A stretch of DNA of 64,000 bases, taken from assembly GCA_951406725.2 (NCBI GenBank), contig OX597831.1, forward strand, positions 17,422,001 to 17,486,000, written 5' to 3'. The position numbers and the translations under genes are program-made. This stretch comes from Octopus vulgaris (taxonomy: Eukaryota). The notes beneath the pieces were generated by a model. It made no database searches. It worked only from the letters and a program-made list of their open reading frames with translations, and had not been told where the DNA came from. This document shows, one piece after another, positions 38,366 to 55,841 of the stretch (its first letter is position 1; every line of letters starts with the position of its first letter).

Positions 38366-38465
38366 GTGTATCAAGTATATGCACGATGGACTTGTGTAAA
38401 AATGCCGGCGGCTATTATTGGTGCAACACTTGTAAAGACAATGCAGCCGTGCGCCCTGTCCACGG
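38366..38465 (+). CDS. Microgene copy 3, exon 2 ((G)VSSICTMDLCKNAGGYYWCNTCKDNAAVRPVH)
   Basis: Acceptor tctttcttatccaAG, 100 nt open frame, donor GG|GTAGGT, 4 Cys. Confidence 0.82.
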
Positions 38466-38739
38466 GTAGGTATGAAAAAATTAACTACTTCACACGTTTA
38501 ATATTCTGAATAAAAATCCCTACACAATTACAGACCGTTTGCAGTAAAAATTTTAACGTAATATCTGACAACACTCCGACCTTGGTCTATTGATTTTACC
38601 TAACGTTACAAAGATTAATATAGTTTAGAAGTGAATATATAATCATAAAAATACAACGTAATGTTGAAAGACTGAGGATGCGATCGTTTACATAGGAAAA
38701 AAAAGAAGGATTGGAATTGTCTGCTATTATTTGTAACAT

Positions 38740-41080
38740 TAAAGGATCACGCTTGTTCTCCAATATTCAAGCATCTAAATATGAGAAACCGAAACTCGAA
38801 GTTAATCGTTGCCAATTAGCACGTATTTCGACGGATGACAATCTTTATGAAGAAGCATGATTGATTGTGTCCTTAGAAAAACGGCAAAACCATGGAAAAT
38901 AGGTGTTTTGCATTAAGGTATGAAACCGAATCTGCCGTTAAGAGACCGTTTTAGAACTGCTACAGGATGTTCTGTGGTTGTCCATTTGAAAGATGTCGGT
39001 TTTCATGCTTGTTCCCCCGTCACTCATAAATATGAAGAACCGAAAAACGAGGTTAAGCTTTGCCAAAGAGATCGTAATTTAGAAGGATGACAATTGATTC
39101 TGTCTGTTCCTCAATGACAAATGCAAGATCAGTTTGTTTGCCTCCGGTAATAGGCAGGACATGAGACGGCTGATAAATGAAGGATTGCTCCCTAAATGCC
39201 TGAATATATGAGTGAAACTTTCAGTTAGGCGTATAATGGTATGGTGAATGGGTTCTACGGCAGGTGCTGGGCAATTTATCAGGGTCCATACTAATGTGAA
39301 TGAATCATATATTGAATCATCCAACAAATTACGATAACAAATACTATTCTATATTTTCTGCATAACGTATTACGTACATTATGTGCATTGGACGGATAGC
39401 TGTTCTCACCTCGTTTCTTGTTACTACAACGTCTTGATAGATGTACTTCCCAATATTCATCAGGGTTCTGGTGGAATTTAGAACCCTCCTAATTCCGAAG
39501 CTATTATTGTTTCTGTTGTTCCTTTTCTTAGTAGCGTGCGATCTTATCCACTTCGCTATATGCTCATCGGCATTTATGGAGCGAGTTGTGGGGCTTATAG
39601 GCCTAAACACTTTTTTGTTTTCTTGATATCAGTATTAGGTCTGCTTAAATGTTTACAGCGTCCTGACGTAAGTTCTGCCACTTTTAATATTCGTATTTTC
39701 TAATGGTTTTCTCTGCCTATTAATTTTACCTCATCCCAGAGGGGAAAGGTGGTCTCCGCTTAACCATACATGAACGGCGATGACTACGATTCAGAGGCTA
39801 CCCCATTGATCAAATGGTGGATCAGGTTCAAAATTCCACAATGACACCTGGTGAAGACTGGAGAGTAAATCGGCCGAAAAGTGACTACAAACACTATGCA
39901 GACAAATAATGTGTGTGAATCAAATTTCGTTGTCTGGTAGATTTATACGTCTCCTCTTTTAAAATGTACTTGCCGTGAAGAAATATACATTTCCAGTCTT
40001 TTTGTGGCCACGTCTACAGTATTCACTTTTTCTGTCCAAGTGATTTTGAATACTGCTGAATAATTAATGATGAAATGGGGCAATGTCGGCGAATATGCTC
40101 GGTGCGGCATCGTCTCCCATCCCAACAGGTCCAACATTTGAACCAGCCTTATTCTGATGGAAGAATACATCTCGTCATGGAACCAAAGATCGTCGATTTT
40201 CTTCCAACGCTGACTTAAGCCCCTCGATTGCTTGCGATAGATGTCCTTTGTTATCGTAAGGTTTGGGCTTGAATCCTCACAATGGAAATAAGCCCTTCAA
40301 ACAGTAGGTAAAGTCCTTGTTTTTGTCGACTATTCTTCATAGAAGCATCAATTCGGCTCCGGTTTTGAACATAAATGCATCATGATGCAATTCACCGTCA
40401 CAGGCATTGGGAAACGTTATACCGTATTGTTTGGCATTCGTAGCGTAAGGTCCAATGCACAACATTCAGTGTATGCGGGTGTGGTTCTGAGGACAGCGCA
40501 TGGAATCAGTGTGACAAAATCAAACGTCATCGCGTTTGAAGTAATCACTAATCGTTGCAGCGTTATGCCCGCTTTCCCCTTCCCATTCGGCGTCAAACTC
40601 AACTCCAAGGCCTGTATCACGTGCCTGGTGGAGGTAGTGTAGCAGTTGGACAATAGGGTGTCTGCTGGAAGCAAGTATTCTAGCAACAGGACTCCACACC
40701 CTGCCATACAAGCAGGAGAAAACAATCATGGCAGCCTTAAAATTTCTCCGACAATATCTACTCCAACTTCAGGCCACACAACGCCTCAGCATGTAGCCTA
40801 TATGATTATCATGTGTTTTGAGCTCATGAGCGTCAGACGAAAAGACAGAACTCCTTATAACACCCAATGAAGGGATTATGGCAGCATTGAACAACTTAAC
40901 CAAGGACACATTCTGGAAAAGCGGCACGTGATTCCAAGGTCACCAATGGCAATTATTATATTCAAAAAATGTACCCTTTGGCTTTTCAAGATATTTTCGT
41001 GTCAATTTTGTAAATATATCTTCTAAAATGAGGGATCAGAATTAATTCCAGTTGTTTATAATTTAGACGTCCCTTTATTC
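38740..41080. mobile_element. Composite of Tc1 (+), mariner (-) and Tc1/mariner (+) remnants in intron 2 of copy 3
   Basis: Paralogous to the intron-2 elements of copies 1 and 2; WETMPHRAYSP motif on the minus strand. Confidence 0.65.
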
Positions 41081-52460: not shown

Positions 52461-53196
52461 TCTTGGGGTGTCCAGAAAGTTCGTGCTGATTTGTAGTAGC
52501 TTACATTTCGACTTAATTTAGAACAAAACTGGGTCCATAAAATATGAACTCAGCTTTGTCAGGCGATGAGAAATGGATTATCTACCGAAATGTTTAGAGA
52601 AAGCGATCCTGGATTAAGCGACATAAGCCACCCTCAGCAACCCCAAAAGCGGATCTTTACCCTAAAAAGTTTTGCTTTGTGTCTGGTGGGATTCGGAAGG
52701 AATTCTGTAGTATGAGATTCTCCCAAATAACCAGACAATTCTGAGAAAGTCTGCACACCACTTGATGAGTAAAAAGAATCAATTGAAGAGAAACATCCAG
52801 AATTGTCAACAGGAAGGGTGTTGTTTTTCAACATGATAATGCAAGTCCGCGCGTTTGTTTGGGAACCACACACTCGGCTGTGATGCATTACCCCACCCTC
52901 CATATTCACCAGATATTGCTCCTTCGGATTTCCACTTATTCAGGACTCTACATAATACTCTTAATGGTAAAAAGTCCAATTTCTGGTATGACGTAAAAAG
53001 ATACCTTGATGAATTCTTTACCATGAAACCATCTCAATTCTGGGAAGAAGGTATTTGCAAGTTAAAGTAAAGATGGAGACACATTGGCCAACAAAATTTG
53101 GTTCATATTTTGTTGATTAAAAATTTAATGCCATGTATTTATTGATCTTTTTCTTTCCTTTGAAAATTTGCACGAACTTTCCGGTCAATCTAATAT
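52461..53196 (+). mobile_element. Internally deleted mariner (duplicate of 33540-34275)
   Basis: Near-identical sequence with the same TIRs and YSPDIAPSD motif. Confidence 0.82.
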
Positions 53197-55741
53197 TTCA
53201 ATAGATTTCAGGCAGTCTCTCTCTCTCTCTCTCTGTCTTTCTCTCCGATCCTTTGTGAATGTCTGGTAGATAGGTGGGTAGGTAGGTAGGTAGGTAGGTA
53301 GGTAGGTAGGTTGGTAGGTAGGTAGGTAGGTAGGTAGGTAAGTAGGTAGGTAGGTAGATATGTAGGTAGGTAGGTAGGTTTATTGGCAGTAAATTTGAAA
53401 AAAAGATATTTGATCGTTTAAGATATTTGATCGTTTAAGCATGAACAGCCTCCTTTAAAGGGATTGGAACGTTGCTCCAAATAATCTGGGATGACAACTA
53501 GCCACTGTACAATTGCGCTCAAACTTTAAGTGTCGGCTGTTTTTAGAACTGAATTCCAAAAATAAATATACTAACATAAATATAAAAGAGACACGTTGGG
53601 CTATTCCGCTTCACTACTTACACAGCCTCACCACACATATTAAGGTATTCTGTTATGGTAATCAATAATGTACATTCATTCTATTAGTTTATAAAGAAAT
53701 ATGTCGATTTTTGCCCGGAGGAGAATTTTTTAAATTCATAATATAATTATAAATTGTTAAATGATTGATAGAAGCTATTGAATGGATCGTAGCCCATAAC
53801 TAATCGGCAATTGTGTTTTTGCAGTATTTAAATTTTCCTTTTTCGTTATATACAACGTAACAGTAGATAAATAGTTATTGTTTGAACAACATGTATATAG
53901 GTGTACAGGTGTGTGTTCATACTTAAGAATTTCAACTAATAAGAAAGGCAAAAATTAAGACTTCCCAACCCAGATATCAATATGTAATTGTTTATTTCTA
54001 AATACGGCAGGATCCTGTGTAGCTTCTTTTTACTGACATCGAAGATGTGCCCGGGGAACCAAGTCTTATGCGTCCGGCTTGATGATTCGCGCGAATCCTT
54101 AGCTTCAAAAAGCAACACACAGATATTTATAGCATAGTGTGTGTATTTATGTATTTGATCAGTAAGATCCTGTATTGTGGCTCAGTGAGAAAATATAGAA
54201 GAATGCCAGGAAGATGGGGATTGTCTCTATAATTAGTTATTAGGTGAAATTGTTTGACATTATCGGTGAGTTCATAATCTCAGAGAAATAGCATGTGCAA
54301 ACATTTATATGCGTAAAGAGTCATGTGTATGTATGTATGTATGTATGTATGTATGTATGCTTGTATGTATATGTGTATGTATATACAGACATGCAGGAAG
54401 TAAATAGACAACATTATCTTTTTTCCCTTCCCTGAGCCTCTGCTAATGCGTTGCGTGTAACACGTACTTGCGTTGTTGTCTGGTGTCTTCTTGTTTTGGG
54501 GTGGAATTGATTATGTCTGTTTACATACACATATTTATATATATATGTGTGTCCCTTTTTGTGACTCTAGCTCTACGCTTCCTTACTTGGAAGCCTTTTA
54601 TTATATTTCTCTTTCTCTCTCTATATATATATATATTTAAATATATATATATATATATATATATATATATATATATATATATATATATATATATATATAT
54701 ATATATATATATATATATATATATATATATATATATATATATATCTTTCTCTCTCTCTCTCTCTGTATGTATATATATATATATATATATAACAGTTAAA
54801 ATAAAAACGAAAATAAATAAATAGCCTTTTATTCTAGTGTTAACCTTGATTCTCTTACCGTATCTTTTTCTACCGATAACTTAAGACCCTCTTATATTTT
54901 TCCTTAGATCTTCCTTTTCTCCTAACACCCATTATAAATTCTGGTGGCTTTCATTTGAAAGCAAGGTGTTGTCAACCTTACAGTCTCTTAAGAATTTAAC
55001 GTTTCTTCCACACTGATCTAGATTTTTGTCACCATAGAAATTGACTGACCTTTCTTTTTAGTGTCAATCTGTCTTTGATCCTTTTACACCCCCAAAATCT
55101 TTTTCTCCTTCCGTTCTTTTCTCCAGCTAATCAGCTTCCTTGACCTACCCTAATACCATTCCTATCACTAAAGAAATTTGTTCTTGCAACAGTTACATGC
55201 GAACTTAATCGTGGTCTGACTGGCATCTTTCTTCATATTTCCTGAAATTCATATCCACTACTTTATCGGTATATTTACCTTCTCTGGGAGGTCACTAATT
55301 AATTTGAGAACTTTACATTGTTGGAAAGCATATATGAATTCAATCTTGATTTGCTTGGCATTTTGCTTCAAGTTCCTGAAACTCACATTTACAACTTTAT
55401 CGGTATATTTACACTCTCTAAGATGTTACTAATTGATTTGAGAACTCTACATTATTGGAAAACCTATTTGAAATTAGCTGAAGATTACTTGACGTATTAT
55501 ATTTCCTGTAATATTTGCAGCTTTAATAAATTGTTATAGTATGAAACAATTGTACTAAATTGCCAGATCTATTCTTGTTGCTAATTCTTTGGGTATATAT
55601 ATATATATATATATATATATATGCTAATGTAAAATATGAGGGCTTCTGCAATTCTTTCTGCTACCGATTTAAGTTAGACAGACAGTTTAAATTAAAGATC
55701 AAAATAGAGTCATGATTTAAAAATCTTCTTTCTTATCCAAG

Positions 55742-55841
55742 GTGTATCAAGTATATGCACGCTGGACTTGTGTAAAAATGCCGCCGGCTATTATTGGTGC
55801 AACACTTATACCGACAATGCAGCCGTGCGCCCTGTCCACGG
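55742..55841 (+). CDS. Microgene copy 4, exon 2 ((G)VSSICTLDLCKNAAGYYWCNTYTDNAAVRPVH)
   Basis: Same splice sites as copy 3, with 5 nt differences that are all nonsynonymous. Confidence 0.8.

What the first reader, a model, noticed from the sequence alone, without database searches (positions are those of the whole stretch)
38366..55841. Diversification concentrated in the mature-peptide exon (conserved ends, hypervariable core)
Seen: copy 3 and copy 4 exon 2 differ at 5 nt, all nonsynonymous and all in the predicted mature peptide (M>L, G>A, C>Y, and K>T by 2 nt), while their exon 3 coding sequences are identical. Copies 1 and 2 differ by one silent base in exon 1, yet their exon-2 cores barely align while adjacent intron DNA aligns easily. 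Inference: positive selection on the displayed peptide, as in conotoxin or antimicrobial-peptide precursors. The counts are small.
Basis: partly seen in the sequence, partly recalled or inferred. Interest (0 to 1): 0.75.

Follow-up and report, generated by a model that had tools for sequence, protein, structure and literature searches.

The report
Fast-changing octopus surface mini-peptide genes
These are tandem copies of a tiny gene, likely from an octopus and predicted to make a lipid-anchored cell-surface peptide, whose middle exon differs between copies nearly three times as much as the nearby non-coding DNA; selection for variety is the likely cause, but the five-letter difference first flagged is no more than chance.

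Summary
The counts are right, but the headline contrast is not evidence. Copies 3 and 4 differ at 5 amino-acid-changing bases in exon 2. Their flanks differ by 2.3-3.3% (P 0.08-0.24), and their identical exon 3 lies in a homogenised tract.

The wider pattern is real. Across eight copies (four outside the window), exon 2 diverges 0.40 against 0.09-0.22 for flank windows. Replacement rate is 3.3x and silent rate 2.0x the intron rate. Within the exon, dN/dS is only 1.0-1.7 and not significantly above 1. Conversion mosaics and divergence shoulders beside the exons fit selection preserving exon differences while gene conversion homogenises the flanks.

The precursor reads as signal peptide, 16-22-residue cysteine peptide, small-residue site, spacer and hydrophobic tail: a predicted GPI-anchored mini-peptide, not a conotoxin-type secreted toxin. 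Flanking introns show that exon 2 derives from a neighbouring six-cysteine family (at least 15 exon-2 copies over about 640 kb) with the same fast exons. Exon 3 evolves at intron rate, so 'conserved ends' holds only for exon 1. No RNA evidence and no database homologue were found.

The parts
2087..2126 (+). Copy 1 exon 1: most of a predicted signal peptide (type a), phase-1 donor
   Evidence: replacement rate 0.09x intron across five type-a exons
5083..5182 (+). Copy 1 exon 2: end of signal, predicted mature peptide (2 Cys), predicted omega site and spacer
10516..10573 (+). Copy 1 exon 3: predicted hydrophobic tail and stop
20652..20691 (+). Copy 2 exon 1 (type a), one silent change from copy 1
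25581..25662 (+). Copy 2 exon 2, 82 nt (18 nt shorter, frame kept), 3 Cys
30876..30933 (+). Copy 2 exon 3, predicted hydrophobic tail
32594..32633 (+). Copy 3 exon 1 (type b), in a block shared with the 5' end of a six-cysteine gene at G000:C18 about 17,350,900 (minus strand)
38366..38465 (+). Copy 3 exon 2, 4 Cys (one gained); carries 4 private replacements
38521..39260 (+). Intron-2 block shared by all eight copies; main part of the neutral reference
39830..41300 (+). Tract where copies 3 and 4 match each other against the third close copy; contains exon 3
41183..41252 (+). Copy 3 exon 3, predicted hydrophobic tail (22 residues)
46446..46485 (+). Copy 4 distal exon 1 (type b), intact 40 nt
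46981..49788 (+). Helitron-like relic between the two exon-1 copies of copy 4; PIF1 helicase domain at 48739-49785
   Evidence: PF05970, E=1.9e-62
51480..51518 (+). Copy 4 proximal exon 1, 39 nt (one base short of the other type-b exons), so it would enter exon 2 in a shifted frame
55742..55841 (+). Copy 4 exon 2, 3 Cys; a contig of run X3 shows the copy-4 letter at all five variable places
58603..58672 (+). Copy 4 exon 3, identical in coding sequence to copy 3

Best explanation
The four copies belong to a tandem family of eight three-exon genes, predicted to encode GPI-anchored 16-22-residue cysteine peptides, whose exon 2 differs nearly three times as much as the flanking DNA, likely because selection keeps the displayed peptides different while gene conversion evens out the introns. 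Shown: the exon layout, the exon-2 peak, the conversion mosaics, and descent of exon 2 from a neighbouring six-cysteine family. Inferred: splicing as drawn, GPI anchoring, loss of the six-cysteine family's middle exons, and selection as the cause. The likely role is recognition at the cell surface (microbes or gametes), with birth and death of copies: one outside copy has no exon 1 and another has a broken acceptor.
For: Exon 2 mean divergence is 0.40 against 0.09-0.22 in 12 flank windows, and exceeds the most diverged flank window in 9 of 10 lineage pairs. Replacement rate is 3.3x intron (p=1e-18) and exceeds the silent rate of 2.0x. Only 1 of 25 equal-rate 'hot neutral' simulations reached that ratio. 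Differences by codon position are 107/133/89 (pairs not independent). Divergence shoulders beside exons run 1.67, 1.39, 1.29, 1.15, 0.93, 0.99 with distance (8 of 13 pairs pooled; P=4e-4 for the first 100 nt). Conversion mosaic around exon 1: 44 runs against 99.6 expected. PMC3924837 (passages read) describes this peak as the signature of selection under conversion. Six-cysteine relatives repeat the pattern: replacement rate 4.1x intron, and D-clade exon 3 gives M2a versus M1a p=0.009. All 8 copies have a small-residue triplet 8-10 residues before a hydrophobic tail, 25-31 residues from the end, matching the layout in PMC2571997 (passages read). Six-cysteine relatives also end in a linker exon plus a hydrophobic exon. 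Exon-2 flanks of the two families are homologous, z up to 24.
Against: Omega within exon 2 is never significantly above 1: 1.25 (p=0.56, six indel-free copies), 1.45-1.66 (p 0.09-0.21), and 0.95-1.25 for the mature part only. M2a gives p=0.26 for this family and 0.17 for the B clade, and pooled omega is 1.5, p=0.06. Recent pairs show no acceleration: 0/100 and 1/100 against flanks of about 1-3%, and run X3 keeps the copy-4 letters. In one six-cysteine pair, unconverted non-coding stretches reach 20-27%, near the exon's 28%. Exon 3 evolves at intron rate; staying both open and hydrophobic has P=0.054 under neutrality, and it does not score against the six-cysteine tail profile. No transcript was seen. 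GPI anchoring was checked by rule only, with no predictor.
Confidence: 0.55

Rival explanations
1. No positive selection. Exon 2 is under little constraint and simply looks older than its flanks, because conversion homogenised the introns and stopped at an exon that had already diverged.
For: Silent rate is raised (2.0x, p=0.015; family-wide 2.5x, p=4.5e-5). Omega is about 1 in the mature part. Conversion tracts are evident, and one starts right at an exon's 3' edge. Cysteine number varies from 2 to 4.
Against: The peak falls on the extracellular exons in three clades, but not on exon 3 or exon 1. Exon 2 exceeds even the oldest-looking flank window in 9 of 10 pairs. The replacement rate stays above the silent rate, and D-clade exon 3 rejects the neutral site model.
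Confidence: 0.22
2. Exon-local hypermutation (error-prone copying or methyl-CpG decay), as proposed for conotoxin mature exons, raises silent and replacement rates alike.
For: Both rates are raised. Exon 2 is GC- and CpG-rich: 49% GC and 5.9 CpG per 100 nt against 30% and 2.1. Adjacent differences are in excess in 2 of 9 pairs. PMC3862624 (passages read) proposes such polymerases for conotoxins. Unchecked earlier notes report exon-over-intron divergence at unrelated loci in this genome.
Against: The transition share is not raised (0.37 against 0.38), and an intron-composition mutation model leaves the rates at 1.9x and 3.0x. Recent pairs with 0-1 exon differences show no hot spot. Divergence decays gradually into the introns.
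Confidence: 0.1
3. The product is a freely secreted antimicrobial or venom-type peptide. Either exon 3 is a cleaved pro-piece, or the transcript reads past the exon-2 donor to the adjacent in-frame stop. This rival concerns the product and can hold together with selection.
For: An in-frame stop lies within three codons past the exon-2 end in all eight copies. Exon 3 shows no purifying signal. One of five models of copy 3 exon 2 is a beta-hairpin with nested cysteines (pLDDT 74.6; the others 42-54).
Against: The stop follows largely from the donor consensus, which six-cysteine genes share while splicing on. The exon-3 acceptor and frame are kept in 8 of 8 copies. A small-residue site, spacer and hydrophobic tail are present in 8 of 8. 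There is no Pfam or PDB match.
Confidence: 0.2

Closest known systems
Conotoxin precursor genes (PMC3862624, passages read), especially the I2 layout of signal, mature peptide, postpeptide
   Same: Conserved signal exon, with point changes and in-frame indels concentrated in the mature-peptide exon. Exon 1 is exchanged between paralogues. The order of parts matches I2.
   Different: No significant positively selected sites here. No fixed cysteine framework (2-4 Cys). The C-terminal piece is a hydrophobic GPI-type tail. No sequence match: one of 11 six-cysteine exons scored a conotoxin Pfam family at E=0.023, treated as chance.
CD52 and CD24, vertebrate GPI-anchored mini-peptides (PMC6065011, passages read)
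   Same: A very short mature peptide between a signal peptide and a predicted GPI signal (CD52 mature part is 12 residues).
   Different: CD52 is a glycan scaffold. These peptides are cysteine- and aromatic-rich, multi-copy and hypervariable. No homology was tested or claimed.
Human red/green opsin exon 5: divergence peak under gene conversion (PMC3924837, passages read)
   Same: A diverged exon inside homogenised introns, with mosaics showing conversion.
   Different: Here there are many copies and the whole exon varies, rather than two key sites. No functional difference between copies is known.
Neighbouring six-cysteine family in this cluster (C-x7-C-x11/15-C, then C-x8-C-x9-C; no name found)
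   Same: Shared exon 1, same exon-2 length and phases, homologous flanking introns, hydrophobic last exon, and fast extracellular exons.
   Different: The window's genes lack the second cysteine exon and the linker exon, and exon 2 is barely recognisable (about 42% identity). The relatives' exon 2 models as two helices (pLDDT 76-82).

Membership tests
Conotoxin-type precursor | Conserved signal exon, hypervariable mature exon | tested here: met
   exon 1 type a 0.09x, exon 2 3.3x intron rate
Conotoxin-type precursor | Positively selected sites by likelihood-ratio test in the mature exon | tested here: inconclusive
   M2a vs M1a p=0.26; omega 0.95-1.66; own codon-model code, not PAML
Conotoxin-type precursor | Fixed cysteine framework within a family (recalled) | tested here: not met
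   2,2,3,4,3,3,3,3 cysteines across eight copies
Conotoxin-type precursor | Sequence homology to conotoxin families | tested here: not met
   no Pfam family for 4 of 4 window exon-2 peptides; no PDB sequence hit
Conotoxin-type precursor | Venom-gland expression | not testable with these tools
   no RNA holder listed
GPI-anchored mini-peptide (CD52/CD24-like architecture) | N-terminal signal peptide | tested here: met
   hydrophobic exon 1 under purifying selection; by rule, no predictor
GPI-anchored mini-peptide (CD52/CD24-like architecture) | Small residues at omega to omega+2, spacer, hydrophobic tail to the end | tested here: met
   8 of 8 copies by rule against the layout in PMC2571997; the outermost copy has 2 charged residues in the tail
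GPI-anchored mini-peptide (CD52/CD24-like architecture) | Tail exon is spliced and under constraint | tested here: inconclusive
   acceptor and frame kept in 8 of 8; rate 0.98x intron; neutral simulation P=0.054
GPI-anchored mini-peptide (CD52/CD24-like architecture) | Surface anchoring, PI-PLC release | not testable with these tools
   needs an experiment
Beta-hairpin antimicrobial peptides (recalled) | Two nested disulfides in a hairpin, conserved across copies | tested here: inconclusive
   only copy 3 has 4 Cys; hairpin in 1 of 5 models; no fold match
Ly6/uPAR three-finger proteins (recalled) | 8-10 cysteines in a beta-sheet domain | tested here: not met
   2-4 Cys here; relatives have 6 and model as helices; no Pfam hit
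Neighbouring six-cysteine family | Homologous exon 1, exon-2 position and flanking introns | tested here: met
Neighbouring six-cysteine family | Second cysteine exon, linker exon, six cysteines | tested here: not met
   no plus-strand profile hit for these exons inside the window's genes

The most novel reading that the evidence does not exclude
An octopus repertoire of hypervariable lipid-anchored micro-peptides, used as cell-surface recognition tags. It arose when a helical six-cysteine surface protein lost two exons and its first half refolded into a disulfide hairpin that is still gaining and losing cysteines. Selection holds the copies apart against gene conversion, while first exons are swapped in from neighbouring genes.
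Probability: 0.2. Interest if true: 0.75.

Novelty: new variant of a known kind. Interest (0 to 1): 0.5.

Why it matters
If real, this is a family of fast-diversifying surface peptides, with no match in the collections and papers searched, in an animal whose recognition molecules are poorly known (my own knowledge). Its origin is traceable: a larger protein cut down to a mini-peptide, with parent and derived forms side by side. It is also a caution. In this cluster, exon-versus-intron contrasts overstate selection because conversion makes the introns look young, and the same bias may affect similar findings elsewhere in this genome.

Tried and rejected
Copy 3/4 contrast as evidence of selection: rejected. 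Copy 4 as a decaying copy that lost a cysteine: rejected, because Tyr is the shared state.

Protein collections: no homologue of copy 3 exon 2 at 24-79 aa, and none for six-cysteine exon 2 at 89-2000 aa. The profile search of 1.84 billion representatives gave one hit, a 1658-aa perfect repeat with 0 matched stretches, rejected as summed noise. These searches used single exons, and the collections may lack this animal's small genes, so the blanks are weak. Pfam gave only scattered sub-threshold hits. PDB sequence and fold searches gave nothing. The protein atlas gave no result.

Expression: no RNA holder listed, which is no evidence either way. Run X2 and the guessed-RNA runs X4 and X13 did not cover exon 2, also no evidence.

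Homology of exon 3 to the six-cysteine tail exon: not shown. Two weak matches on contig C20 (E 2.4 and 4.5) lack the gene layout and were set aside. CpG or composition as the cause of the fast exon: not supported.

Literature: four searches for such a cephalopod family (listings and abstract starts only) showed none; the library lacks most subscription papers. Two searches for CD24/CD52 returned nothing. Two classic exon-versus-intron papers were not held under the ids I recalled and are not cited. No supplements were read.
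Full report
Setting. The window is G000:C18:17422001-17486000 in a 2.8-Gb animal genome. That it is an octopus is my inference, in line with unchecked earlier notes on this genome. Self-comparison shows four related blocks. Each holds a 40-nt first exon (signal peptide, phase 1), an 82- or 100-nt second exon (phase 1 to 2) and a short last exon. Copy 4 has two first exons, separated by a Helitron-like relic with a PIF1 domain. The proximal one is a base short. Genome searches and 844 kb of fetched neighbourhood gave four more copies. 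I call them A0 (upstream) and A5-A7 (downstream). A6 has no first exon, and A7 has lost its exon-2 acceptor AG.

The observation. The five differences between copies 3 and 4, the identical exon 3 and the single silent change in exon 1 of copies 1 and 2 are all as stated. The copy 3/4 contrast is not above chance. Flanks differ at 123 of 5396 sites (P=0.08), 9 of 54 flank bins reach 5 differences, the upstream flank gives P=0.24, and five replacements of five has P=0.24. A three-way comparison with A6 shows copy 3 as the usual outlier up to and through exon 2. Copies 3 and 4 then match each other over about 1.5 kb that includes exon 3. Other recent pairs differ at 0 of 100 (A5/A7) and 1 of 100 (copy 4/A6) exon-2 bases. 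One contig of run X3 shows the copy-4 letter at all five places; one of run X1 matches A6 plus one further replacement (single contigs, depth 5.6 and 8.4). Six replacements and no silent change in this group has P=0.18. Four of the changes, including the new cysteine, are private to copy 3.

The deeper pattern is real. Among five lineages, exon 2 differs at 0.40 of sites, 12 flank windows at 0.09-0.22 and exon 3 at 0.15. Exon 2 exceeds the most diverged flank window in 9 of 10 pairs. I fixed branch lengths from 1218 flank columns and fitted silent and replacement multipliers with my own codon-model code. Exon 2 gave 2.0x (p=0.015) and 3.3x (p=1e-18), exon 3 gave 0.76x and 0.98x, and type-a exon 1 gave 0.73x and 0.09x (p=1e-4). 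The six indel-free copies alone gave 1.7x and 2.4x. The ends of exon 2 gave 2.4x for replacements, so they are not conserved either. Exon-1 constraint may be overstated, because A0 and copy 1 share a converted tract there.

Selection is likely but not shown. Silent and replacement rates differ at p=0.08. Free-branch omega is 1.25-1.66 for exon 2 and 0.95-1.25 for the mature part. M2a versus M1a gives p=0.26 with A6 and A7 left out. In simulations of 25 runs each, none of 50 runs with a true silent rate of 1 reached 2.04, so the raised silent rate is not a model artefact. Only 1 of 25 equal-rate fast runs reached the observed ratio. Composition does not explain it.

Why silent sites are fast. 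Conversion is plain in this cluster: 44 runs against 99.6 expected around exon 1, and 122 against 134 for copies 3, 4 and A6. Divergence falls with distance from the exons, 1.67, 1.39, 1.29, 1.15, 0.93, 0.99 times the far flank (8 of 13 pairs pooled; 110 against 78.4 in the first 100 nt, P=4e-4; alignments next to some exons are sparse). PMC3924837 (passages) describes such a peak as selection restricting conversion. The same process makes introns look young, so the 3.3x figure overstates selection. In one related pair, unconverted non-coding stretches reach 20-27%, close to the exon's 28%.

Origin. The copies sit inside a larger family, with 15 exon-2 and 19 exon-3 profile matches over about 640 kb. 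These genes have a signal exon, two exons with three cysteines each, a 9-10-residue linker exon and a hydrophobic last exon. The window's exon 2 has the same length and phases as theirs. Its flanks match the B subgroup at z up to 12 upstream and 24 downstream, while the exon itself scores z of 3 or less. Because the more distant C and D subgroups share the longer layout, the three-exon form is likely derived by exon loss (inference). Copies 3 and 4 took their first exon from a C-type gene (86-92% over 438-666 nt). The relatives show the same fast exons: 3.2x silent and 4.1x replacement. One of three site tests is significant (D exon 3, p=0.009 uncorrected; B p=0.17), and pooled omega is 1.5 (p=0.06).

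Product. All eight copies show a small-residue triplet 8-10 residues before a hydrophobic tail (mean hydropathy 1.06-1.39). This matches the omega-spacer-tail layout in PMC2571997 (passages). With signal cleavage a few residues into exon 2 (inferred), 16-22 residues with 2-4 cysteines would be displayed. The case for exon 3 is incomplete. It evolves at intron rate, staying open and hydrophobic has P=0.054 under neutrality, 6 of 26 flank windows of the same size are also gap-free, and it does not match the relatives' tail profile. Single-exon models give two helices for a relative's exon 2 (pLDDT 76-82) and a hairpin for copy 3 in 1 of 5 models. The fold change is speculative. No transcript was seen.

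Comparison. It evolves like conotoxin genes (PMC3862624, passages) and is built like CD52 (PMC6065011, passages), but it is a member of neither by the tests above. No homologue was found in protein, family or structure collections, nor in four literature searches. These blanks are weak for single short exons. Unchecked earlier notes describe exon-over-intron divergence at several unrelated duplicated loci in this genome, so part of the signal may be genome-wide.

Verdict. New variant of a known kind, interest 0.5.

Noticed in passing
G000:C18 about 17,316,600-17,953,800 (window coordinates -105,400 to +531,800): Large family of six-cysteine, likely GPI-anchored helical proteins with no database match found: 15 exon-2 and 19 exon-3 profile matches, several broken or partial.
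   Followed up: partly
exon 2 of all eight copies (e.g. window 38366-38465): A second, shifted reading frame is also free of stops in 8 of 8 copies; simulations gave this in 2-16 of 300 runs. The short first exon of copy 4 would read in this frame without a stop in exon 2. Unexplained.
   Followed up: partly
window 31617-35509, 45465-46832, 51087-54420: The first exon and its surroundings in copies 3 and 4 come from a six-cysteine gene about 100 kb upstream on the other strand: a promoter and signal-exon swap.
   Followed up: partly
window 46981-49788: Helitron-like relic with a PIF1 helicase domain, broken by stops, lying between two duplicated first-exon blocks.
   Followed up: partly
G000:C18 about 17,128,000-17,274,000 (window -293,700 to -148,400; L041-L056): Ten further signal-type first exons of related build, most in recent ~95% identical duplications; their downstream exons were not identified.
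   Followed up: no
G000:C18 about 17,517,455-17,519,320 (window 95,455-97,322): A 795-nt perfect inverted repeat next to a partial six-cysteine gene fragment; possible recent rearrangement or assembly artefact.
   Followed up: no
G000:C18 about 17,456,900-17,496,700 and 17,522,300-17,546,200: Segmental duplication that copied exons 2-3 of the copy 3/4 type without a first exon (A6) and the A5 gene (A7, broken acceptor).
   Followed up: yes
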